A stretch of DNA of 60,687 nt, taken from NCBI GenBank assembly GCA_041639695.1, contig JBEQBQ010000006.1:1-60687 (forward strand), given 5' to 3'. The notes beneath the pieces were generated by a model. It ran no database searches and was not told where the DNA came from. It worked only from the letters and a program-made list of their open reading frames with translations. Position 1 is the first letter of the stretch. Every line of letters begins with the position of its first letter. Positions 8,725 through 16,481 of this stretch are shown here, piece by piece. The position numbers and the translations under genes were made by a program. The stretch is from Candidatus Nanohaloarchaea archaeon. GTDB taxonomy: Archaea; Nanohalarchaeota; Nanosalinia; Nanosalinales; Nanosalinaceae.

Positions 8725-8817
8725 GTAATAATGCACTTTAGCAACTTTCTTATGCTGAACGCTGGCTCCTGTTTTCAGGTTATCTTGGAAAGCGTAGAAC
8801 TTTTCTGGTTGGTTGTC

Positions 8818-9555
8818 CTAGATATGCCATGTAACGTCGTTTGAGGAATTCTTGACCTGTATACTTACCTTGTTAGCGTATTCTGACTCAGGGGATACCT
8901 GAAGAGTATTGCCGTTCCACTGTAGTTGAAGGCCGTTTCCGTTACCGGAATTACCGTGCTGGGTGATACTCGAGGATTTTGAGCCATTTCCGCTAACAGA
9001 CCAGTAAACTTTGTAAACTGCGGTAACATCGGTGTTCGATCCATCTGCCAGACCTACTAGTGCTTCACCTAAACATCTATTGTTGGCTGTAAACATGTCG
9101 TGCCATGAGTTCTGTGGGTTATTTGACTTGTCGAAAGTTACGTTTCTGGCCTCTATGTTAGAGTTTCCCACATTCACCGAGTGAGCTCCTGAAACCTTAA
9201 GCCTAGTGTTTCTGATTTCTACAGGACCGCCATCGTTTACCTTAAAATACGTACTGCCAGAGTCAAGGAAGTTAAATCCGGAAGAACCTGAAATATTGTT
9301 TTTAGTCAGTTTAAGACTTGATGCAGGAGTCATACTTAGTGCGCCGAGGCCTATAGCGCCAACACCGATTTTCTTTAGGAAATCACGCCTAGATACTGAT
9401 TCCTTGCCATTTAGATTATTTTTTTCTCCCAGCTTCTCTTTGAGCGCCTTCTTTTCTTTTTCAAGTCTGCGGGTTCTCCTTTTTAGACGCTCGTTCTGAT
9501 TCTCCAGCTCATTAATCTTGGATTCTATCTCCTGCTTCCATTTTTCCGAAGACAT
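8818..9555 (-). CDS. coiled-coil plus twin-arginine signal exported protein (paralog of 15235..16467)
   Basis: N-terminal heptad coiled coil, SRRDFLKK plus hydrophobic helix, beta-rich Asn/Ser/Gly C-terminal domain. Confidence 0.75.
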   Translation of the reverse strand: MSSEKWKQEIESKINELENQNERLKRRTRRLEKEKKALKEKLGEKNNLNGKESVSRRDFLKKIGVGAIGLGALSMTPASSLKLTKNNISGSSGFNFLDSGSTYFKVNDGGPVEIRNTRLKVSGAHSVNVGNSNIEARNVTFDKSNNPQNSWHDMFTANNRCLGEALVGLADGSNTDVTAVYKVYWSVSGNGSKSSSITQHGNSGNGNGLQLQWNGNTLQVSPESEYANKVSIQVKNSSNDVTWHI

Positions 9556-9634
9556 GTTTAGCGTTGTGCTTGGCTCAATTAAAAAATTCCGTCTATGTTT
9601 TGATCTGGCTTTTGCCGGCCTGTGAGTAACTTGG

Positions 9635-9982
9635 TTACATAGTAGCTTCCTTTACTGTCTCCAGCCCCAGCATCGCGCACTTCATCCTCATCGGAGAAAC
9701 ATCAATACCTAACCTTTCTAGCATCCATTCATCGTCAAGCTCACTTACGTCTTCGGGGTTCATTCCTTCGAGTTCTTCAGATATTATTGAGATTGCTGCT
9801 GTCGATATAGCACAGCCATCGGTCTCGTGCCTGATCTTCCTGATCTCTCCATCCTCAACCTCCACGTAGATGTGTGTTTTGTCGCCACATGAAGGGTTTT
9901 CAGCCTCCGCATCTAGATCGGTTTCAAAGCTGCCCTCGTTCCGTGGATGTTTGTATAGATCAAGGATTTGGTCGCGGTACAT
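9635..9982 (-). CDS. sufU: SufU/IscU-type scaffold or sulfur-transfer protein
   Basis: ILDLYKHPRN, NPSCGD, GCAISTA, RMKCA. Confidence 0.92.
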   Translation of the reverse strand: MYRDQILDLYKHPRNEGSFETDLDAEAENPSCGDKTHIYVEVEDGEIRKIRHETDGCAISTAAISIISEELEGMNPEDVSELDDEWMLERLGIDVSPMRMKCAMLGLETVKEATM

Positions 9983-10036
9983 AGTTTCAAAGTTCTAACT
10001 TAATTCTTAACTAAGGCGTGGAAGAATTGAATTCTC

Positions 10037-10405
10037 ATGATCTGGAATACCGAAGCAGTTCTGGAGGATATCGAGAATGCGATGGAAGAACCTGTTAACT
10101 ACTTTCAGCAAGAGGGGCTGGAGATTGAAGCCTACAATTTAGATGTTGATCCCTCCAGAGGTAGTGGTGAAAGCCTTGAAACGGCTTTTGAAAACCTAGA
10201 TCTTTCCTTCGTCGGTGTTGTAAGATTCCGTTCCGAGGAATTTCCCGATCTTGATATAGAGTTTCTTTACGAACCATCAGAGAACCAGGGTTATTTTGCA
10301 GTAGGAAACATACAGGATGACGAAGACGCGCGTGAAACCGCAGAAGAATACTTTAAGGATGTGGGAGGGTTGGTCGACTATGGTCTTGAGGCAGAGTTCA
10401 GCTGA
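10037..10405 (+). CDS. hypothetical, very acidic protein
   Basis: 122-aa ORF between sufU and sufS on the opposite strand. Confidence 0.6.
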   Translation: MIWNTEAVLEDIENAMEEPVNYFQQEGLEIEAYNLDVDPSRGSGESLETAFENLDLSFVGVVRFRSEEFPDLDIEFLYEPSENQGYFAVGNIQDDEDARETAEEYFKDVGGLVDYGLEAEFS

Positions 10406-11579
10406 AAACTTGTTTGACTTCCTTTACGGCTTCCAAAAATTCTTCTACATCCTCTTCCGTGTTATATAGATAAGGTGATGCTCTCGTAGTACCTGATATA
10501 TCAAGTGACTCCATCAGTGGCTGCGCACAGTGATGTCCGGCCCGTACCGCTACATTTTTCTGGTTAAGAATCTCAGCGACATCATGGGGGTGAGCGAAGT
10601 TTGTGCTAAAGGATACGACAAAGACATCGTCTTCAGGAGCTAAAACATCCACTCCTTCAATCTTCTCTAGACCTTTCCTGATCTTTCTGCAAAGCTTTTG
10701 ATCATGTTCTTGGATCTCTTCCATCCCTATATCTTCTAGATAATCTATTGCAGCTGAAAGACCTACAGCGCCTGCAATATTAGGTGTACCGGCTTCAAAT
10801 CTTTCTGGAACCTTTTCATATTCGACTTTGTTCTTTTTGACCGCTCTGATCATCCCTCCACCAACTTGGTAAGGATCCATCTCCTCAAGCAGGTGTTTCT
10901 TCCCGTAAAGAACTCCTATTCCGGAAGGTCCCAACATTTTGTGGCCTGAAAAAGTAAGGAAATCGACATCAAGCTGTTTCACATTTGTATTCATTCGTGG
11001 TACTGACTGCGCTCCATCCAGAACCACGAGCGCATCGTTTTCATGCGCGAGCGCCACGATCTCCTCGACAGGGTTTCCTACACCGGTGACGTTCGAGACA
11101 TGCGAAAGGCTTACGAGAGCTGTATCTTCGTCAATTATTTCTTCCGCTGAATCAAGATCAAGCTTAAAGTCTTTTGTTGGGATGTATTCGAGTTCCAGGT
11201 TGTCCTGTTCGGCCTTTCTCCTCCAGGGCAATTGTTCGGAGTGATGAGCCATTTCCGGAACAACTATTTTTCCTTCAAGTTCAAGAGAGTGCGCTAGAAG
11301 ATTCATCGCCTCTGAAGTGTTCCGTACAAATATTGTTTCATCAGTTCTGGCATTTATGAACTCTGCTACATTCTTTCTTGCACTACTGTATTCTTTCGTG
11401 GCTTCTCCCGCTAAATCGTATAGTCCGCGGCCTACGTTTGCGTTTGAGTCTTCGTAAAATCTTTTTACGGCCGCAGTCACCTGTTTAGGTTTCTGTGATG
11501 TTGCTGCCGAGTCGAGGTAGACAAGTTCCTCGTGGTTCTGGAAGATGGGAAAGTCTTCTCTCAGTTTTTCGGGTTCCAT
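10398..11579 (-). CDS. sufS: cysteine desulfurase SufS
   Basis: YLDSAATSQKP, DGAQS, FSGHKMLGP (PLP Lys), RAGHHCAQP. Confidence 0.96.
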   Translation of the reverse strand: MEPEKLREDFPIFQNHEELVYLDSAATSQKPKQVTAAVKRFYEDSNANVGRGLYDLAGEATKEYSSARKNVAEFINARTDETIFVRNTSEAMNLLAHSLELEGKIVVPEMAHHSEQLPWRRKAEQDNLELEYIPTKDFKLDLDSAEEIIDEDTALVSLSHVSNVTGVGNPVEEIVALAHENDALVVLDGAQSVPRMNTNVKQLDVDFLTFSGHKMLGPSGIGVLYGKKHLLEEMDPYQVGGGMIRAVKKNKVEYEKVPERFEAGTPNIAGAVGLSAAIDYLEDIGMEEIQEHDQKLCRKIRKGLEKIEGVDVLAPEDDVFVVSFSTNFAHPHDVAEILNQKNVAVRAGHHCAQPLMESLDISGTTRASPYLYNTEEDVEEFLEAVKEVKQVFS

Positions 11580-11615
11580 AAGCCCTAACTCCAAGTCGAA
11601 CTTTTTAAGAACACT

Positions 11616-11792
11616 CTAGGACCTGATCCAGGAGAGAACGCCTGAACCTATAGAGACCACGAGAAACACTGAAATGAACGCACCTATGTTCTTCGGGTTG
11701 ATCCAGCCCGAGGTGTAGATATCGGAGAATATGTATGCCAGGCCTCCGCCTGTGCTTGAAAATGCCAGAAGCCGCCAGCCTTCTCTTTCCAT
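11616..11792 (-). CDS. small two-TM membrane protein (58 aa) between sufD and sufS
   Basis: Manual translation MEREGWRLLAFSSTGGGLAYIF...GVLSWIRS*. Confidence 0.55.
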   Translation of the reverse strand: MEREGWRLLAFSSTGGGLAYIFSDIYTSGWINPKNIGAFISVFLVVSIGSGVLSWIRS

Positions 11793-11833
11793 AAATTGGA
11801 AAATCTAAGCTCCAGACTTAAACTGAATGTTTC

Positions 11834-12910
11834 TCATCTAAGCTTGCATTCGACTTCATCCCTGATATTTTCCTTCAGCTCAGGTAGCTTAATCTCTTCA
11901 AGTACTGGTTCAAAGAAGCCCTTCACAATCAAACGCTGGGCTTTTTCTTCTGAAAGACCTCTTGACTCAAGATAGTGAAGCTCTTTCTCAGGAAGGTTTC
12001 CAGCGGAAGCGGCATGACTGGCCTCAACCTCAGGATCTTCAATCATAAGTTTGGGCGAGGCGTCAACTTCCGCATCGTTGGACAGTGTGAGTACGTTTTC
12101 GTTCTGGAAACTATGTGTATCATCCGCCTGACTTTCTACTTTCTGCAGTCCCTCGTATACTGATCGTGCCTCGTCGTCCACAACTGCACGTGAATCCATG
12201 TCGCACCGTGTGTTGGTTCCTATGTGCCTGACATGGAGGGAAATGTCGATGTGTCGGTCGTCTGTGGGGTACCAGATGCCCTGCATATCGGCTTCGGAGT
12301 TGTCTCCTTTCAGTACAGTTTCGATCTTCGTCCTGTTCAAATCACCCTCGAACTGAGAGTTCAACCACTCAATATTCGCGTCCCGTTCAACTACGGCCTT
12401 TCTCCTCGAGTACGAAAGCTCGGCGTCGCAAGATTCAATATTTCCGTATCTGACCGTGGAGTTCTCTCCCAGGTAAAATTCGTTGAACGAGGTCTGAACA
12501 CTTGTTTCTCCTCTAAACTCTTCGGTTACCGTTATCTCCGCGTTCCGGGAGGTCTCAAGAACCATGTGTGAGAAAACAGGCGAATCATTTTCGTACCGGA
12601 TATTTATCTCAGAAACTCCCTCGGCCTTAACATAGATTACCGCGTTGAGGTTGGCGGCATGGAAGGCATTCATCCGATCCTCCTCCATCTTTATCGAATC
12701 GAAAAGCTTCTCGCCAGCCTCTTCGACAGCTTCTTCGCCGGTCAAAACCGTTACTTCGCCGTCCGAATCAATTTCTGGTTCAAAATCGGAGTCTCCGACT
12801 TCGAATTCCTCAACGTCCGGGTAACGTGTCCATGTTCTTCCCGGCGTTCTAATCGATTCAGGCATCTCAAGCTCCTGAATCTTCCTCTCAGCTTCTTTCT
12901 TCAGATTCAT
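11834..12910 (-). CDS. sufD: SufD
   Basis: SufB/D beta-helix; PKLMIEDPEVEASHAASAG, YLESRGL; ATGA overlap with sufB. Confidence 0.92.
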   Translation of the reverse strand: MNLKKEAERKIQELEMPESIRTPGRTWTRYPDVEEFEVGDSDFEPEIDSDGEVTVLTGEEAVEEAGEKLFDSIKMEEDRMNAFHAANLNAVIYVKAEGVSEINIRYENDSPVFSHMVLETSRNAEITVTEEFRGETSVQTSFNEFYLGENSTVRYGNIESCDAELSYSRRKAVVERDANIEWLNSQFEGDLNRTKIETVLKGDNSEADMQGIWYPTDDRHIDISLHVRHIGTNTRCDMDSRAVVDDEARSVYEGLQKVESQADDTHSFQNENVLTLSNDAEVDASPKLMIEDPEVEASHAASAGNLPEKELHYLESRGLSEEKAQRLIVKGFFEPVLEEIKLPELKENIRDEVECKLR

Positions 12911-14301
12911 CCTAGGCTTCCCTCCATTTCAAGCTGGATCAAACGGTTTAGTTCGACAGCGTATTCAAGCGGAAGCTCCTTCGCAATAGGCTCGATAAAC
13001 CCTCTTACAATCATTTCCTTGGCTTCCTCCTCTTCGATACCTCTCGACATCAGGTAGTGTATTTCTTCGTCCCCAATCGAACCTACTGTGGCTTCGTGAG
13101 CTACGTCAACATCATCCTCTTTCAATTCAACGTAAGGCTCTGTGTCGGAGGTAGCTTCTTCGTCAAACATCAAAGCGTCGCATTCGATCGAAGTCTTAGA
13201 TCCGTGTGCTCCGTTAGCTACTCTTACAAGCCCTCTATAGTTTGTTCTTCCGTTATCCTGCGAAATGCTCTTTGATTCAATAGTTGACTTAGTATTTGGT
13301 GCGTTGTGGATAACTTTTGCGCCCGTGTCAATATCCTGGCCTTCTCCTGCGAAGGAGATCGTGATGTGGTTGGCTTTCGCACCTTCGCCATTCAAATGCG
13401 ATGAAGGATAAAGCATCGTGACCTTCGAACCCATAGATCCGGAAACCCACTCCATCGTACCGTTCTTCTGTACCTTAGCTCTCTTAGTGTTCAGGTTGTA
13501 CGTGTTCTTCGACCAGTTCTGCACCGTCGAATACTGGACGTGGGCATCCTCTTTAACGAATACTTCGACACATCCTGAGTGGAGATTGCTTCTTGTGTAC
13601 TGTGGTGCAGAACAGCCTTCAATATAGTGTACCTTCGAGTTCTTTTCTGCTATAATCAAAGTGTGTTCGAACTGGCCCATTCCCTGCGAGTTCATCCGGA
13701 AATAAGCTTGTACAGGGATCTCGACCTCTACACCTTCAGGTACGTAGACGAAAGAGCCTCCGCTCCAGACTGCTCCGTGTAGAGCTGCGAACTTGTTGTC
13801 CTGAGCCGGAACACACCTCCTCATGAAATACTCTTTAACCAGTTCTTCGTGTTCCTGCAACGCTTTGTCCATGTCGCAGAAGATGACGCCTTTCTCCTCC
13901 CACTCTTCCTTCATGTTTTGGTAGACGACTTCGGAATCGTACTGTGCGCCTACACCGGAAAGAGCATCTCTCTCGGCCTCAGGAATCCCGAGCTTATCGA
14001 AAGTTTCCCTTATCTCGTCGGGTACCTCGTCCCAATCGTTAGATTGTTCTGCGTCGGGCTTGATGAACGCGGTAATTTCTTCGAAGTCAATACCTGAGAG
14101 GTCCGGACCCCAGTCGGGCATAGGACGTTTCTTGAAATGTCTGTAAGCCTTCAAACGTTTTTTCTTCATCCATTCTGGCTCGTCTTTCTGCTCCGAGATT
14201 TCCTCGATTATTTCCTCGGATAGGCCTTTGCCCGAGTCGTATGCAGGTTCGGAATCTACTTTATGATCAAACCTTTCCTGGTTTTTCTCAACTTCAGTCA
14301 T
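12907..14301 (-). CDS. sufB: SufB
   Basis: FAALHGAVWSGGSFVYVP, GQFEHTLII, YIEGCSAP, LHSGCVE, HEATVG. Confidence 0.97.
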   Translation of the reverse strand: MTEVEKNQERFDHKVDSEPAYDSGKGLSEEIIEEISEQKDEPEWMKKKRLKAYRHFKKRPMPDWGPDLSGIDFEEITAFIKPDAEQSNDWDEVPDEIRETFDKLGIPEAERDALSGVGAQYDSEVVYQNMKEEWEEKGVIFCDMDKALQEHEELVKEYFMRRCVPAQDNKFAALHGAVWSGGSFVYVPEGVEVEIPVQAYFRMNSQGMGQFEHTLIIAEKNSKVHYIEGCSAPQYTRSNLHSGCVEVFVKEDAHVQYSTVQNWSKNTYNLNTKRAKVQKNGTMEWVSGSMGSKVTMLYPSSHLNGEGAKANHITISFAGEGQDIDTGAKVIHNAPNTKSTIESKSISQDNGRTNYRGLVRVANGAHGSKTSIECDALMFDEEATSDTEPYVELKEDDVDVAHEATVGSIGDEEIHYLMSRGIEEEEAKEMIVRGFIEPIAKELPLEYAVELNRLIQLEMEGSLG

Positions 14302-14324
14302 ACTACTTGGTTCCGGGATGAACC

Positions 14325-14348
14325 TTTAAATTCTGAGCCAGTTCAGAA
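14325..14348 (-). promoter_or_regulatory. sufB promoter: TATA box (TTTAAA) with an abutting inverted repeat TTCTGA-N6-TCAGAA
   Basis: TTTAAA at 14325-14330 lies 24-29 nt upstream of the sufB ATG; inverted repeat at 14331-14348. Confidence 0.4.
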
Positions 14349-14383
14349 ATCAGCTAGATAAGCTTTAGCACGAAATAGTTGTT

Positions 14384-14782
14384 ATGTCAGAGTCGTACGG
14401 CCAGCAGATTTATGGCGCAGTCTGCCAACTAGATCTTAGAAATTGTCTAGGGCGGCTTAGAAGTCCTGTAAAAGATATTTTGACGGGTCAGACAGAACAA
14501 TATCAGTCTGTTGACTGTTTAGGAGTTGAAGATGCAAGTGAGATAGGAATAATGGAGGAATACCGAGTCTGGTTAGATGAATCTGAGGAGTCTCCGTCTC
14601 TTTGTTTTTCGCTTGCTCTAGCAGAACTGGGAACGGATAGAATGCTTACAACTTCATACAGTCAAGGGGAAGATCAGCTTTTTGAAGACTTTGTTGAGTC
14701 TATAGACGATTCCCTAGAAGATTACGAATTAAAAAGGTGTCATATGGGTTCAAACACAGAAGCCTGGGTATTCAAGATTTGA
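14384..14782 (+). CDS. hypothetical protein
   Basis: 132-aa acidic ORF divergent from sufB. Confidence 0.55.
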   Translation: MSESYGQQIYGAVCQLDLRNCLGRLRSPVKDILTGQTEQYQSVDCLGVEDASEIGIMEEYRVWLDESEESPSLCFSLALAELGTDRMLTTSYSQGEDQLFEDFVESIDDSLEDYELKRCHMGSNTEAWVFKI

Positions 14783-15164
14783 TATCAGAAGACGAGTAGC
14801 CTTCTTTCTCAGTTATTCTAACAACTTCAACATCGTGGCCTGTCGCATCTTCAGCCATCTCTCTGACCTCTTTTTCAGAATGACTCTGGTCATGCCCTAG
14901 GGTGATAATATCCGGATCAACTTCCTTTACGGTCGAGTAGATATCTCCTTCCGAGCCGAGAGTTGCTCTGTCAACAACCTCAAGTGCCTTAAGCATCTCC
15001 TGCCTTTCCTTCTCGTCGAACTCAATATCCTTTCTTTCTTTGACTCTGGAGTCTCTGGCGACGACTACCACAAGCTCATCGCCCTGTTTCGCGGATTCTC
15101 TCAGGTAATGGAGATGTCCCGGATGGAGCACATCGAAAGTTCCTTGGGCCATTACAGTGGTCAT
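14772..15164 (-). CDS. ribL: archaeal FAD synthetase (cytidylyltransferase-like)
   Basis: GTFDVLHPGH, VVVARD, PDIITLGHDQ, YSSS. Confidence 0.85.
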   Translation of the reverse strand: MTTVMAQGTFDVLHPGHLHYLRESAKQGDELVVVVARDSRVKERKDIEFDEKERQEMLKALEVVDRATLGSEGDIYSTVKEVDPDIITLGHDQSHSEKEVREMAEDATGHDVEVVRITEKEGYSSSDIKS

Positions 15165-15234
15165 GTTAGATGATTGAAATACTCAGAATTAAATTAGGAC
15201 ATGGCGAGATCTAACGGATAGACGTCCAATTCCG

Positions 15235-16467
15235 ATGATTTATATGGCTGGAGAGGACTCTAAGGTTATGTCCCAAAATCTTGAGGAGAAGATTGAACTT
15301 CTTGAGCAGAGACTTGGTCGACTTGAAGAAGAAAACCAGGAACTCAAACAAAGGCTTAATGATTCTGTTGATTTTGAGGAGAAGGAAAAATCTCGGGTTT
15401 CGCGACGTGGTTTTCTAAAGAAGCTAGGAGCTGGTGCAATAGGTATAGGAGCACTTTCCTTAACTCCTGCGGCATCTAAGTTAAAAATTAGCAGTAATGG
15501 TATTGAGGGGGGTGCAGGACTGAATTTCTCAGAGTCTGGGTCGAAATATTTCAAGATAAGTGAGGGAGGCCCTGTAAAAGTAAACAACACTCACTTAGAG
15601 ATTAGATCGAATAAAGTGGTGGCAACTGAGCCTGTAGTAGTAGCTGCCGGCAACAGCAAGAAGAAAAACCTTGCTGATTATGTATGCGATGGTACAAACG
15701 ATCAACAAACGATTCAGTCGGCTCTTAACGAATTCAGCCAAGATAGCGGGAAGTTTGTGAGGCTTCTTGATGGAGATTATTACCTATCGGGTCGATTAGA
15801 TATGGAAGGGAGAGGTCTGCGCGGACAATCGATGCACGGCACGGTCTTGCATGCAACTAACGAACTTTCAAACAAAATGATTTTCGGGGGTTCTAATGAT
15901 GCTGCCATAGGTCTGGAATCGCTTCAATTACATGGTCATAGGCGAGATAACTCTGGGTCCTATATCGGTGTACAACCACGGTACCGAGGACCTCTGTACA
16001 TCAATAACGTGGAGGTCCGGTCCTTCCCTGGTAGCGGTATAAGTAACGCTGGGTACGAAGGGCAGAAAGCGACAGCTAGCATAACCAACTCCAAAATACG
16101 TGACAACGGTGAACATGGTATTTTCTTAAGATATTACTACAAGCGTCCTACGAATGGAGCGGGTTCAAGTAATCAATTAATGGCCTCAGGCAGGTTGATT
16201 GCGAACTGCGGTGTGATGAACAACGGTCAGAACGGTTCTGAAGACTATGATAACATATGGATAGGTGATGACAATACGTATGGGAGCAGATGGTTTACTA
16301 TAAAAGGTAACTACATCGAAAAAGGAGGCAATACCCGGTACGGAATCCAGCTTCATGGCAGATCAAATGGAACTCATGTCGTGATAGGGAATAACTTCGA
16401 TGCAGGAGGTAATACAGCTAACCTCTCAGATAACGCGTCAAACACGATAGTAGGAAACAACTACTGA
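15235..16467 (+). CDS. coiled-coil plus twin-arginine signal protein with right-handed beta-helix (tailspike/pectate-lyase-like) head
   Basis: Coiled coil, SRRGFLKK plus hydrophobic helix, ADYVCDGTNDQQTIQSALN...LLDGDYYL, repeated N/G-I beta-helix turns. Confidence 0.78.
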   Translation: MIYMAGEDSKVMSQNLEEKIELLEQRLGRLEEENQELKQRLNDSVDFEEKEKSRVSRRGFLKKLGAGAIGIGALSLTPAASKLKISSNGIEGGAGLNFSESGSKYFKISEGGPVKVNNTHLEIRSNKVVATEPVVVAAGNSKKKNLADYVCDGTNDQQTIQSALNEFSQDSGKFVRLLDGDYYLSGRLDMEGRGLRGQSMHGTVLHATNELSNKMIFGGSNDAAIGLESLQLHGHRRDNSGSYIGVQPRYRGPLYINNVEVRSFPGSGISNAGYEGQKATASITNSKIRDNGEHGIFLRYYYKRPTNGAGSSNQLMASGRLIANCGVMNNGQNGSEDYDNIWIGDDNTYGSRWFTIKGNYIEKGGNTRYGIQLHGRSNGTHVVIGNNFDAGGNTANLSDNASNTIVGNNY

Positions 16468-16481
16468 AAGATGTCTTTCTC

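What the first reader, a model, noticed from the sequence alone, without database searches (positions are those of the whole stretch)
8818..16467. Modular 'coiled coil - internal Tat motif - conserved neck - variable head' protein family
Seen: 8818..9555 and 15235..16467 both start with a ~45-aa coiled coil BEFORE a canonical SRRxFLKK motif. They then share about 70 similar residues (GAIG.GALS.TPA.S.LK...G.NF..SGS.YFK...GGPV...NT.L) and diverge completely into unrelated beta-rich heads. Both exported parts are Asn/Gly/Ser-rich rather than acidic, unlike neighbouring proteins. Established: Tat exports folded, even oligomeric, proteins, and constant-stem/variable-tip architecture typifies phage tail fibres and trimeric adhesins. 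Inference: an undescribed family of oligomeric surface fibres whose cytoplasmic coiled coil nucleates assembly before Tat export, with swappable tips for host recognition by this presumed ectosymbiont.
Basis: partly seen in the sequence, partly recalled or inferred. Interest (0 to 1): 0.72.

Follow-up and report, generated by a model that had tools for sequence, protein, structure and literature searches.

The report
Tat-exported tail-fibre-like proteins, nanohaloarchaeon
Two genes in this tiny salt-loving symbiotic archaeon belong to a large family of virus-tail-fibre-like surface proteins whose export signal for folded proteins is preceded by a long conserved helix, making them good candidates for how the cell grips its host.

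Summary
Genes A (8818..9555, -) and B (15235..16467, +) share a leader-plus-neck module (52% identity over 108 aa) and then diverge completely.

They are 2 of about 30 paralogs in this 0.97-Mb genome. The wider family has 456 clusters at 50% identity. Full-module relatives were seen only in Nanohaloarchaea MAGs.

The helix before the twin-arginine motif must be translated. 20 of 28 paralogs, A and B included, have no start codon within 25 codons of RR, and a TATA-like AT peak lies about 30 nt upstream of the helix ATG.

tatA and tatC sit inside a cluster of family genes. Across 70 genomes of the phylum, TatC and the family co-occur: 17 both, 6 family only, 3 TatC only, 44 neither.

Some heads are homologous to phage tail fibres. 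B's head weakly resembles tailspikes. The exported part of A models as a homotrimer (ipSAE 0.89, best control 0.01).

The idea that the coiled coil nucleates trimers is not supported. The zippers of A and B look dimer-like, and much of the family has no clear heptads.

A and B are lineage-specific insertions between housekeeping genes. This scan had already noted the family on another contig of this genome. Five literature searches found no description in print.

The parts
9577..9586 (-). TATA-like AT-rich box of gene A, 22-31 nt upstream of its ATG (putative promoter; leaderless or short-leader mRNA)
   Evidence: Sequence. Across 28 paralogs the AT fraction peaks at 0.86 at -30..-26 from the helix ATG, against about 0.55-0.67 around it. 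Function is inferred.
9412..9555 (-). Gene A, aa 1-48: N-terminal charged helix, a leucine zipper (d = I10, L17, L24, L31, L38; a = I14, N21, T28, K35, L42), placed before the Tat motif
   Evidence: AF2 helix 2-48, pLDDT 95-98. The only start codon upstream of RR is the ATG at 9555. The heptads were read directly from the sequence.
9316..9396 (-). Gene A, aa 54-80: twin-arginine signal (S55-R-R-D-F-L-K-K, Gly/Ala-rich h-region 63-75, T-P-A-S-S c-region with a putative signal peptidase I site after S80)
   Evidence: TIGR01409 22.9 bits vs cut-off 16.7 at aa 54-75. Family logo. Cleavage is inferred, not shown.
9193..9315 (-). Gene A, aa 81-121: conserved neck (LKLTKNNISGSSGFNFLDSGSTYFKVNDGGPVEIRNTRLKV)
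   Evidence: Shared with B and with the family. Residues 79-136 form inter-chain contacts in the trimer model. No PDB relative by sequence.
8821..9192 (-). Gene A, aa 122-245: variable head, an orphan beta-rich domain (stop codon 8818-8820)
   Evidence: No Pfam, PHROG, PDB or phage match. One related head among 135 (P0080). Residues 160-239 lie in the trimer interface.
15187..15196 (+). AT-rich TATA-like box upstream of gene B (39-48 nt before the first ATG; putative)
   Evidence: Sequence. It lies further upstream than in most paralogs. Inferred.
15235..15387 (+). Gene B, aa 1-51: N-terminal helix with a GCN4-like leucine zipper (d = L16, L23, L30, L37; a = I20, L27, N34, L41)
   Evidence: AF2 helix 5-51. 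The ATGs lie at 55, 52 and 44 codons before the S of the SRR motif, and there is no ATG, GTG or TTG within 25 codons of RR.
15397..15477 (+). Gene B, aa 55-81: twin-arginine signal (S56-R-R-G-F-L-K-K, h-region 64-76, T-P-A-A-S c-region)
   Evidence: TIGR01409 20.2 bits vs cut-off 16.7 at aa 55-75. Logo.
15478..15603 (+). Gene B, aa 82-123: conserved neck (KLKISSNGIEGGAGLNFSESGSKYFKISEGGPVKVNNTHLEI)
   Evidence: Similarity to A ends at aa 123. AF2 pLDDT is 73-83 for aa 101-130.
15604..16464 (+). Gene B, aa 124-410: variable head, probably a tailspike-like right-handed beta-helix (stop codon 16465-16467)
   Evidence: phrog_11699 minor tail protein, E 4e-4, aa 133-204. tblastn finds 16 phage records, all Streptomyces phages; of the 10 listed, the feature under the match is a tailspike or minor tail protein in 7 and 'hypothetical protein' in 3. 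Best hit E 2e-5, 45% identity over 62 aa. ESM-Atlas neighbours are pectate-lyase/beta-helix clusters, score 0.95 (a lead only). No other homologue found. The AF2 head is unusable.

Best explanation
A and B are two members of a nanohaloarchaeal family of modular, secreted, tail-fibre-like proteins. Each gene carries its own promoter and encodes four parts in order.
1. A 40-60-aa highly charged N-terminal helix. In A and B it is a leucine zipper.
2. A canonical twin-arginine signal with an unusually conserved Gly/Ala h-region and a Pro-small-small-small c-region.
3. A conserved beta-rich neck of about 45 aa.
4. A variable head.

Proposed mechanism. The protein folds and trimerises in the high-salt cytoplasm. 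The RR motif docks on TatC while the N-terminal helix stays on the cytoplasmic side. TatA/TatC carry the folded neck and head across the membrane. The leader is then probably removed by the archaeal signal peptidase I at the conserved small-x-small site. The fibre is held at the cell surface through the conserved neck, and the variable head binds surface structures of the haloarchaeal host. B's head, as a tailspike-like beta-helix, may also cut them.

The helix is a family-specific addition to the Tat leader. I think it is a docking, holding or timing element for export rather than the trimerisation device.

Shown here: the architecture, translation of the helix, the size of the family, the linkage with tatAC, tail-fibre homology of some heads, and mosaic combinations of parts.

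Supported by a model only: the trimer.

Inferred: export itself, cleavage, surface retention, host binding and the role of the helix.
For: Module and family:
-.
- All 150 listed relatives have the RR motif, at median position 50; 140 of 150 have it at position 30 or later.

Translation of the helix:
- The only ATG lies 39-61 codons before RR in most paralogs.
- 20 of 28 paralogs have no ATG, GTG or TTG within 25 codons of RR.
- There is an AT peak at -30..-26 from the helix ATG.
- AF2 predicts the helix with pLDDT 95-98.

Tat link:
- tatA is at C2:40515-40655 and tatC at C2:40757-41374, flanked by family genes.
- Across 70 genomes of the phylum: both 17, family only 6, TatC only 3, neither 44. 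Among the 28 genomes at least 90% complete: 10, 3, 0, 15.
- A family gene lies within about 5 kb of tatC in 12 of the 17 genomes that have both (read).
- In a crude motif scan, 30 of 45 RR-plus-hydrophobic candidates are family members, and only about five of the other 15 look like plausible Tat signals; the rest look like off-frame noise.

Cleavage plausibility:
- Pro at +21 in 68%, followed by A/S, A/S, S/A/G. The uncharged stretch is 19-20 aa with mean hydropathy 1.35.
- Signal peptidase I (TIGR02228) is present.

Fibre nature:
- PHROG tail-fibre hits of paralogs: 3.5e-29, 8.8e-22, 5.8e-9.
- Pfam Collar, Peptidase_S74, Gp10_C and Laminin_G_3 in a few of the 150.
- B's head resembles phage tailspikes.
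- Trimer model of A aa 76-245: ipSAE 0.89, 0.90, 0.89 against a best control of 0.01; partner pLDDT at least 83; runs share at least 89% of contacts. The mark was reached by 20 of 30 solved pairs and 1 of 23 single chains, and the calibration used two copies, not three.
- pLDDT of the same region in the monomer was only about 35-70.

Modularity:
- Of 378 paralog pairs, signal plus neck are similar in 371, the extension in 148 and the head in 23. Several head-related pairs combine different leader types.
Against: - No experimental or RNA evidence exists for expression, export, cleavage or location; no RNA run was listed.
- A's head has no homologue of known function.
- B's head evidence is weak: E 2e-5 over 62 aa, a feature-based lead, and a failed fold.
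- Most of the 150 relatives have no Pfam hit in the head.
- The trimer result is a model's own confidence, and its calibration was for two copies.
- No anchor is visible, so surface retention is an assumption.
- Six genomes have family hits but no TatC hit: G063 77% complete, G035 90%, G043 97%, G052 86%, G055 75%, G003 92% with one weak hit. Three have TatC but no family hit: G062 79%, G066 77%, G020 71%.
- Genomes of one phylum are not independent, so the Fisher p values overstate the link.
Confidence: 0.65

Rival explanations
1. Signal-anchor version. The Tat signal is not cleaved. Its Gly/Ala-rich h-region stays in the membrane as an N-terminal anchor and the charged helix remains as a small cytoplasmic domain. 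This would make the proteins Tat class III/V-like type II membrane fibres, with the cytoplasmic helix available for oligomerisation or for contact with cytoplasmic partners.
For: - No C-terminal hydrophobic anchor or other anchoring signal exists in any of 28 paralogs.
- The helix and the h-region are far more conserved than a disposable leader usually is; Gly is present at four h-region positions in 84-99% of 158 sequences.
- The uncharged stretch is 19-20 aa, just long enough to span a membrane.
- Uncleaved N-terminal and internal Tat signals are established classes: Rieske proteins and FecR (PMC13673990, section 6 read).
Against: - The h-region has low hydropathy (mean 1.35).
- It ends in a helix-breaking Pro (68%) followed by small residues at -3 and -1, the usual signal peptidase I site (the site rule is stated in PMC7317946 and PMC13673990).
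- Signal peptidase I is encoded in the genome.
Confidence: 0.35
2. First reader's mechanism. The N-terminal coiled coil forms the same oligomer as the fibre (a trimer) in the cytoplasm and nucleates its assembly before Tat export.
For: - The helix is conserved, translated and confidently helical.
- The exported part models as a trimer.
- Tat can carry oligomers (established knowledge, recalled).
- Solved TatC-based complexes are described as trimeric (PMC13673990, passages seen), so three linked signals are conceivable.
Against: - The zippers of A and B have Leu at d and Asn or polar residues at a. By recalled coiled-coil rules this is the pattern of parallel dimers.
- The nearest PDB matches are GCN4 constructs, though not significant at E about 0.03.
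- Only 63 of 147 extensions have at least 5 of 6 hydrophobic core positions, and 63 carry a KVEERV-type charged helix.
- Three paralogs have short or non-helical extensions (C8:26344, C8:27734, C2:42287).
- The trimer model of A needed no helix.
- From recalled knowledge, tail fibres usually trimerise from the C-terminal end. One paralog has a C-terminal S74-type chaperone hit.
Confidence: 0.2
3. The proteins are released enzymes or toxins rather than cell-bound adhesins. Examples would be glycan depolymerases that open the host envelope, or receptor-binding killing factors.
For: - A cleavable-looking signal with no anchor.
- B's head resembles tailspike and pectate-lyase-type beta-helices, many of which are depolymerases (the enzymatic role is recalled).
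Against: - The conserved neck directly after the signal, shared by unrelated heads (371 of 378 pairs), suggests a common attachment point. The same argument was made for the Bdellovibrio MAT fibres (PMC10769870, passages seen).
- Most heads that do have homologues match receptor-binding fibre tips, not enzymes.
Confidence: 0.15
4. The genes are remnants of a virus or provirus, that is, genuine tail-fibre genes, and not cellular genes.
For: Homology of several heads to phage tail fibres. A and B are insertions relative to congeners.
Against: - About 30 dispersed single genes, each with its own promoter.
- A lies between sufC and a NifU-type gene, and B between a cytidylyltransferase and an XPD-type helicase. 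No other viral gene is adjacent.
- Every copy carries a Tat export signal, which virion parts assembled in the cytoplasm would not need.
- The family is linked to tatAC.
- No relative was confirmed among 207 candidate stretches in the viral contig collection.
Confidence: 0.03

Closest known systems
Mosaic adhesive trimer (MAT) fibre proteins of Bdellovibrio bacteriovorus (PMC10769870; abstract and passages seen)
   Same: - A multi-copy family (21 members there, about 30 here) in a small cell that lives on other prokaryotes.
- A signal peptide followed directly by a conserved beta-rich N-terminal domain.
- Phage-tail-fibre-like trimeric shafts and diverse, swappable tips.
- A subset with an S74 chaperone domain: 13 of 21 there; weak Peptidase_S74 hits in 2 of 150 here.
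   Different: - Archaeal, not bacterial.
- Much shorter: 140-675 aa among the 150 relatives, against constructs of about 1000 aa quoted in that paper.
- Twin-arginine signal preceded by a long conserved helix, whereas the passages I saw of that paper mention only 'the signal peptide'.
- Linked to tatAC.
- Sequence homology between the two conserved N-terminal domains was not tested.
- Surface location and glycan binding are shown for MATs and are only inferred here.
Receptor-binding tail fibres and tailspikes of tailed phages (PHROG tail-fibre families; Pfam Collar PF07484, Peptidase_S74 PF13884, Gp10_C PF21939)
   Same: - Constant proximal part and variable distal tip.
- Homotrimer, by model for A.
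- Direct sequence homology of some paralog heads and weak homology of B's head to Streptomyces-phage tailspikes.
   Different: - Cellular genes scattered among housekeeping genes.
- Each carries an export signal.
- Not part of a virion gene set.
- A's head has no phage match.
Twin-arginine (Tat) signal peptides, TIGR01409 / PF10518; substrate classes I-V (PMC13673990, section 6 read)
   Same: S-R-R-x-F-L-K-K motif, moderately hydrophobic h-region and small-x-small c-region. Tat machinery is present.
   Different: - The RR motif lies at about position 50 behind a conserved 40-60-aa helix.
- The n-region is strongly charged, with an excess of acidic residues: E 23%, D 6%, K 16%, R 6%. It is not simply basic.
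- The h-region is conserved almost residue by residue across a family with unrelated passenger domains.
- The family fits neither class I (short N-terminal signal) nor class V (folded globular N-domain, uncleaved) cleanly.
Extended signal peptide region (ESPR) of autotransporters and trimeric autotransporter adhesins (recalled; no paper read here)
   Same: A conserved N-terminal extension placed in front of an otherwise normal signal peptide, found on large surface adhesins.
   Different: ESPR is a short extension on Sec signals of Gram-negative bacteria (recalled). No ESPR Pfam match appeared in A, B or the 150 relatives. Here the pathway is Tat and the extension is a long charged helix.
GCN4-type leucine zippers (bZIP)
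   Same: Four to five heptads with Leu at d and a central Asn at a. Sub-threshold Pfam bZIP_1 hits in 6 of 150 relatives. GCN4 chains are the top PDB profile matches, E about 0.03, not significant.
   Different: No basic DNA-binding region precedes the zipper. It is followed by an export signal, so this is a resemblance of coiled-coil type only.

Membership tests
Tat substrate (twin-arginine signal, TIGR01409) | S/T-R-R-x-F-L-K consensus motif | tested here: met
   TIGR01409 is above its cut-off in A (22.9 bits) and B (20.2 bits) against 16.7. R-R-x-F is invariant in 27 paralogs and in 150 relatives.
Tat substrate (twin-arginine signal, TIGR01409) | Uncharged, moderately hydrophobic h-region of at least 12 residues followed by a c-region with small residues at -3/-1 | tested here: met
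   The uncharged stretch has a median of 20 aa and hydropathy 1.35. Pro at +21 in 68%, then A/S, A/S, S/A/G.
Tat substrate (twin-arginine signal, TIGR01409) | Signal located at the extreme N-terminus with a short basic n-region | tested here: not met
   RR lies at aa 56-57 (A) and 57-58 (B), and at median position 50 in 150 relatives. The n-region is a 40-60-aa helix with E 23% and K 16%.
Tat substrate (twin-arginine signal, TIGR01409) | TatA and TatC encoded by the organism | tested here: met
   PF00902 184 bits at C2:40757-41374. PF02416 44 bits at C2:40515-40655.
Tat substrate (twin-arginine signal, TIGR01409) | Export depends on Tat and on the RR pair | not testable with these tools
   This needs RR-to-KK variants or a tat mutant in an expression host.
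Phage tail fibre / tailspike-like receptor-binding protein | Sequence homology of the distal part to tail-fibre or tailspike families | tested here: inconclusive
   A: no hit. B: phrog_11699 E 4e-4 and tblastn to Streptomyces-phage tailspikes, best E 2e-5 over 62 aa. Paralogs: clear hits, 3.5e-29 and 5.8e-9.
Phage tail fibre / tailspike-like receptor-binding protein | Homotrimeric, intertwined beta-structure | tested here: inconclusive
   Model only. A aa 76-245 in three copies gives ipSAE 0.89 against a best control of 0.01, partner pLDDT at least 83 and at least 89% shared contacts. 20 of 30 solved pairs and 1 of 23 single chains reach the mark, and the calibration was for two copies. B was not tested.
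Phage tail fibre / tailspike-like receptor-binding protein | Encoded within a virion structural gene module | tested here: not met
   The neighbours are sufC, a NifU-type gene, a cytidylyltransferase and an XPD-type helicase. No relative was confirmed in viral contigs.
Bdellovibrio MAT fibre superfamily | Conserved beta-rich domain immediately after the signal peptide, shared by all members | tested here: met
   Met as an architecture only. Signal plus neck are similar in 371 of 378 paralog pairs. Homology to the MAT domain itself was not tested.
Bdellovibrio MAT fibre superfamily | Sequence or fold homology to MAT proteins | not tested
   No MAT sequence was fetched or compared.
bZIP / GCN4 leucine zipper | Heptad repeat with Leu at d and Asn at a central a position | tested here: met
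   Read from the sequences of A and B. The motif occurs in 48 of 147 extensions.
bZIP / GCN4 leucine zipper | Basic DNA-binding region N-terminal of the zipper, and a Pfam bZIP match above cut-off | tested here: not met
   The zippers start within 10-16 residues of the N-terminus. All bZIP_1 hits are below the 27.6-bit cut-off.
ESPR (extended signal peptide region) | Match to the ESPR model | tested here: not met
   No ESPR family appears among the Pfam hits of A, B or the 150 relatives.

The most novel reading that the evidence does not exclude
In Nanohaloarchaeota the Tat translocase may be kept chiefly as a dedicated secretion system for one mosaic family of trimeric, tail-fibre-like host-binding proteins. 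The conserved leader (charged helix or zipper, RR motif, glycine-patterned h-region) would then be a new kind of bipartite targeting and assembly signal. It could, for example, hold folded trimers at TatC, bind a dedicated cytoplasmic partner, or stay behind as a membrane-embedded stalk. The genes would spread as self-contained promoter-gene cassettes into intergenic gaps of housekeeping operons, giving each lineage its own repertoire of heads and hence its host range.
Probability: 0.3. Interest if true: 0.85.

Novelty: new variant of a known kind. Interest (0 to 1): 0.7.

Why it matters
How DPANN archaea recognise and hold their hosts is largely unknown. For nanohaloarchaea, the papers I looked at discuss giant SPEARE-type proteins and LamG/PKD-domain secreted proteins (PMC10266531, PMC7443923; passages only).

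This family gives a concrete, testable set of candidates. There are about 30 small genes with exchangeable heads, some clearly related to viral receptor-binding tips, and all are tied to one export machine. The patchy distribution of that machine in the phylum, noted in PMC9765267 and PMC10266531, is mirrored by the family.

It also offers the Tat field an unusual substrate type. The passenger is a probably trimeric fibre, and the signal carries a long conserved helix in front of the RR motif.

The fact that A and B are lineage-specific insertions suggests rapid turnover of the repertoire, as expected for host-range determinants.

Tried and rejected
- Fold of A: the AF2 monomer has mean pLDDT 62.6. 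Foldseek against the PDB and BFVD gave nothing at E <= 0.001, and the weak rows were ignored.
- Fold of B: the head has pLDDT 30-55, too poor for a fold search, so none was made.
- B's head: only itself was found in the 5.8-billion-protein search. No PDB sequence match at E <= 5. No relative in 70 genomes of the phylum.
- A's head: one non-significant PDB row, an adhesin at E 0.22, and no phage match. The whole-protein search found only a 171-aa version of itself and P0013.
- Flanks: no conserved motif or repeat around the 28 paralogs apart from the TATA-like box, so an integron-like or transposon-like cassette structure was not supported.
- Viral origin: 207 pattern matches in viral contigs, none confirmed.
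- Neighbours in the tatAC cluster: five unknown ORFs have no Pfam hit; RNase J and DUF192 genes are nearby. No partner was identified.
- The search for related loci with the 27-row alignment failed for lack of a conserved stretch. It was repeated with a 5-row alignment.
- Literature: searches found no description of this family, and one search was used to find the MAT paper. Supplementary tables of the nanohaloarchaeal papers were not opened and may list such proteins as hypothetical or Tat-signal proteins.

Full report
OBSERVATION

A is 8818..9555 on the minus strand and encodes 245 aa. B is 15235..16467 on the plus strand and encodes 410 aa.

BLASTP aligns A 17-121 with B 16-123 at 52% identity (E 4e-32) and finds nothing significant after that. 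The NCBIfam twin-arginine signal model TIGR01409 is above its cut-off in both, at aa 54-75 and 55-75, so the RR motif is internal.

AlphaFold2 gives one long N-terminal helix: aa 2-48 in A (pLDDT 95-98) and aa 5-51 in B. Read from the sequence, both helices are leucine zippers of four to five heptads.
- A has I10, L17, L24, L31, L38 at position d and I14, N21, T28, K35, L42 at position a.
- B has L16, L23, L30, L37 at d and I20, L27, N34, L41 at a.

The exported parts are poor in acidic residues and rich in Asn, Gly, Ser and Thr.
- A: D+E 7%, NGST 45%, pI 8.1.
- B: D+E 9%, NGST 40%, pI 8.4.
- Medians for 574 other long ORFs of the genome: 19%, 23%, pI 4.7.

THE HELIX IS TRANSLATED

In the window's genome (0.97 Mb, 38 contigs, 89% complete) a motif scan found 28 family ORFs. 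In most of them the only in-frame ATG lies 39-61 codons before RR, at the start of the helix.

20 of the 28, A and B included, have no ATG, GTG or TTG at all within 25 codons upstream of RR. In those genes the Tat signal can only be made if the helix is made.

Aligned on that ATG, the upstream regions show an AT-rich peak at -30 to -26 (AT fraction 0.86, against 0.55-0.67 nearby). This is the place of an archaeal TATA box for a leaderless or short-leader mRNA (function inferred).

In the 150 best relatives from a profile search, the RR motif is present in all 150. It lies at median position 50, and at position 30 or later in 140 of them.

One public gene call of A does start at Met75 and lacks helix and signal (171 aa). 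Given the above I regard it as a mis-call.

A LARGE FAMILY

Several searches agree on the size of the family in this genome.
- tblastn with B's first 127 residues finds about 30 places.
- A profile of 27 leader-plus-neck modules (alignment A1) finds 30 places at E <= 1e-5.
- The same profile finds 456 clusters (50% identity representatives) at E <= 1e-3 among 1.84 billion proteins, 217 of them at E <= 1e-10.

In a scan of genome contigs with one peptide pattern, 12 loci were confirmed. The four that match the whole module are all titled 'Candidatus Nanohaloarchaea archaeon' MAGs. The other eight match only the Tat-signal part, in unrelated organisms.

Among 70 species genomes of the phylum, 23 have the family. 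The window's genome has 30 hits and no other genome has more than 10.

ANATOMY OF THE CONSTANT PART

The extension is very charged (E 23%, K 16%) and comes in two flavours. Of 147 extensions of at least 30 aa:
- 48 have the zipper motif with Asn at position a, as in A and B;
- 63 have a KVEERV-type charged helix;
- 12 have both and 48 have neither;
- only 63 have at least 5 of 6 consecutive hydrophobic core positions.

The signal itself is conserved almost residue by residue: RRxFLKK-[LIA]-G-[AL]-G-A-x-G-L-G-A-L-S-L-x-P-[AS]-[AS]-[SAG]. The uncharged stretch is 19-20 aa with mean hydropathy 1.35.

The Pro plus small-x-small ending is what signal peptidase I sites look like (rule as stated in PMC7317946 and PMC13673990). 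An archaeal signal peptidase I gene is present (TIGR02228, 117 bits).

The neck (LKLTxNGI...SG.xF.DSGSxYFK.N.GGPVE.xNTxL) follows directly. It has no relative among solved structures by profile search.

LINK WITH THE TAT MACHINE

tatA (C2:40515-40655) and tatC (C2:40757-41374) lie in the middle of a cluster of family genes on another contig.

Across the 70 genomes, TatC was found in 20. The cross-tabulation is:
- both TatC and the family: 17;
- family only: 6 (G063 77% complete, G035 90%, G043 97%, G052 86%, G055 75%, G003 92% with a single weak hit);
- TatC only: 3 (G062 79%, G066 77%, G020 71%);
- neither: 44.

Among the 28 genomes at least 90% complete the counts are 10, 3, 0 and 15. The Fisher p values are 1e-8 and 2e-5, but related genomes are not independent, so these overstate the link.

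Reading the coordinates together, a family gene lies within about 5 kb of tatC in 12 of the 17 genomes that have both.

In a crude scan for RR plus a hydrophobic stretch in this genome, 30 of 45 candidates are family members. Only about five of the other 15 look like plausible Tat signals, two of them lipoprotein-like. The rest look like off-frame noise.

Two papers had noted that TatC is patchy in this phylum, and one suggested it may be inactive (PMC9765267, PMC10266531; passages only).

THE HEADS

Heads are extremely diverse.
- Of 378 paralog pairs in this genome, signal plus neck are similar in 371, the extension in 148 and the head in only 23.
- Several head-related pairs combine a zipper-type with a KVEERV-type extension, which is evidence of mosaic evolution.
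- Among 135 heads from this genome and the 150 relatives, single-linkage clustering gives 57 groups, one of them with 65 members.

Some heads are clearly viral in type.
- One paralog (C2:38145-39023) matches PHROG tail-fibre families at 3.5e-29 and 8.8e-22.
- Another (C13:29358-30449) matches at 5.8e-9 and has a sub-threshold Peptidase_S74 chaperone hit.
- Among the 150 relatives, Pfam finds only a few head domains: Laminin_G_3 in 2, Collar in 2, Peptidase_S74 in 2, Gp10_C in 1.

B's head has weak but consistent support as a tailspike-like domain.
- It has a weak PHROG minor-tail hit (E 4e-4, aa 133-204).
- tblastn finds 16 phage records, all Streptomyces phages. Of the 10 listed, the match lies in tailspike or minor tail genes in 7 and in genes annotated 'hypothetical protein' in 3. 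The best hit is E 2e-5, 45% identity over 62 aa.
- Its ESM-Atlas neighbours are pectate-lyase or right-handed beta-helix clusters, score 0.95 (a lead only).
- No other homologue was found, and its fold prediction failed.

A's head is an orphan, with one relative among the 135 heads.

OLIGOMER

Three copies of A aa 76-245, with the family alignment, gave ipSAE 0.89, 0.90 and 0.89 against a best control of 0.01.
- The partner pLDDT was at least 83.
- The runs shared at least 89% of their contacts.
- There were about 400 contacts, spanning the neck (79-136) and the head (160-239).
- The mark was reached by 20 of 30 proteins solved as pairs and by 1 of 23 solved as single chains. The calibration held two copies, not three.

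The same region was poorly predicted as a monomer (pLDDT about 35-70). This is model support for an intertwined homotrimer, not proof.

The evidence here does not favour that.
- Leu at d with Asn at a is, by recalled coiled-coil rules, the signature of parallel dimers such as GCN4.
- GCN4 constructs are also the top, non-significant, PDB matches of the profile.
- Much of the family lacks a clear heptad pattern.
- The exported part trimerises in the model without the helix.

I could not test the helix's oligomeric state. I think it is a family-specific docking, holding or timing element of the leader. This is inference.

CLEAVED OR ANCHORED

No paralog has a C-terminal hydrophobic tail. There are two possibilities.
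- The leader is cut and the conserved neck holds the fibre on an envelope partner. The same is proposed for the conserved N-terminal domain of the Bdellovibrio MAT fibres (PMC10769870).
- The signal stays as an N-terminal anchor with the helix in the cytoplasm, as in Tat classes III and V (PMC13673990).

The peptidase-site pattern and the low hydropathy favour cleavage. The unusual conservation of helix and h-region favours retention. I put cleavage at roughly 60:40.

GENOMIC CONTEXT

A sits between sufC and a NifU-type gene, inside a string of Fe-S assembly genes: sufB, sufD, a class-V aminotransferase and the NifU-type gene. B sits between a cytidylyltransferase and an XPD-type helicase.

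In the two same-genus genomes, sufC and the NifU-type gene are 24 and 31 bp apart and A is absent. In G064 the cytidylyltransferase and the helicase are 65 bp apart and B is absent; G063, 77% complete, gave no match.

So A and B, each with its own promoter, are lineage-specific insertions, or less likely precise losses elsewhere. No repeats or shared flank motifs were found. This fits a fast-turnover repertoire.

COMPARISON AND NOVELTY

The closest functional analogue is the Bdellovibrio MAT family. The heads relate to phage receptor-binding proteins. The leader is a Tat signal with an addition, and its logic recalls the extended signal peptide region of autotransporter adhesins (recalled).

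No paper describing this family was found in five searches. Supplements were not opened.

Earlier notes of this scan (e1-3907725, e1-3907734, e1-3907726) had already described the same family at the tatAC cluster of this genome. My results agree with them and add:
- the two outlying members A and B;
- the phylum-wide TatC co-occurrence;
- the start-codon and promoter evidence;
- the trimer model;
- the insertion evidence.

VERDICT

This is a real and interesting family, best filed as a new variant of known kinds: a Tat substrate and a tail-fibre-like adhesin repertoire.

Noticed in passing
window 8775-9633 and 15165-16481: Genes A and B are absent from the syntenic gaps of same-genus genomes. 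sufC and the NifU-type gene are 24-31 bp apart in G064 and G063, and the cytidylyltransferase and XPD-type helicase are 65 bp apart in G064. Both genes are therefore lineage-specific insertions carrying their own promoters. No flanking repeats were seen.
   Followed up: partly
window 8818-9333 (protein P0151): A public gene call of A is 171 aa long and starts at Met75, so it omits the helix and the Tat signal. Automated annotation may systematically truncate this family.
   Followed up: partly
G000:C12:18429-18513 (L003 843-927): A tRNA-Leu (anticodon TAA) gene lies 7 bp from the 3' end of family gene C12:18520-19449. The sequence downstream of C4:11048-11815 also looks tRNA-like, but ARAGORN called nothing there.
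   Followed up: partly
G000:C4 ORFs found (frame offsets 41550 and 43167): Two neighbouring non-family ORFs have an RR motif (ERRELLQSIGAGAG, GRRAVLQTAAAGTG) preceded by 38-74 acidic residues. They may be further Tat substrates with long N-terminal extensions.
   Followed up: no
window 10037-10405 (+) and 14384-14782 (+): Two small, very acidic ORFs (122 and 132 aa) without any Pfam match sit among the Fe-S assembly genes.
   Followed up: no
G000:C2:36500-47500 (L065): The tatA-tatC pair is flanked by intact and fragmentary family genes, some without a start codon or only 87-94 aa long, and by small ORFs without Pfam hits directly downstream of two family genes (L065 2528-2947 and 3613-3918). 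These may be helper genes.
   Followed up: partly
G000:C13:29358-30449 (L044): This paralog ends in a sub-threshold Peptidase_S74 (intramolecular chaperone of endosialidase) match followed by a short C-terminal coiled-coil-like tail. It parallels the S74 subclass of the Bdellovibrio MAT fibres.
   Followed up: no
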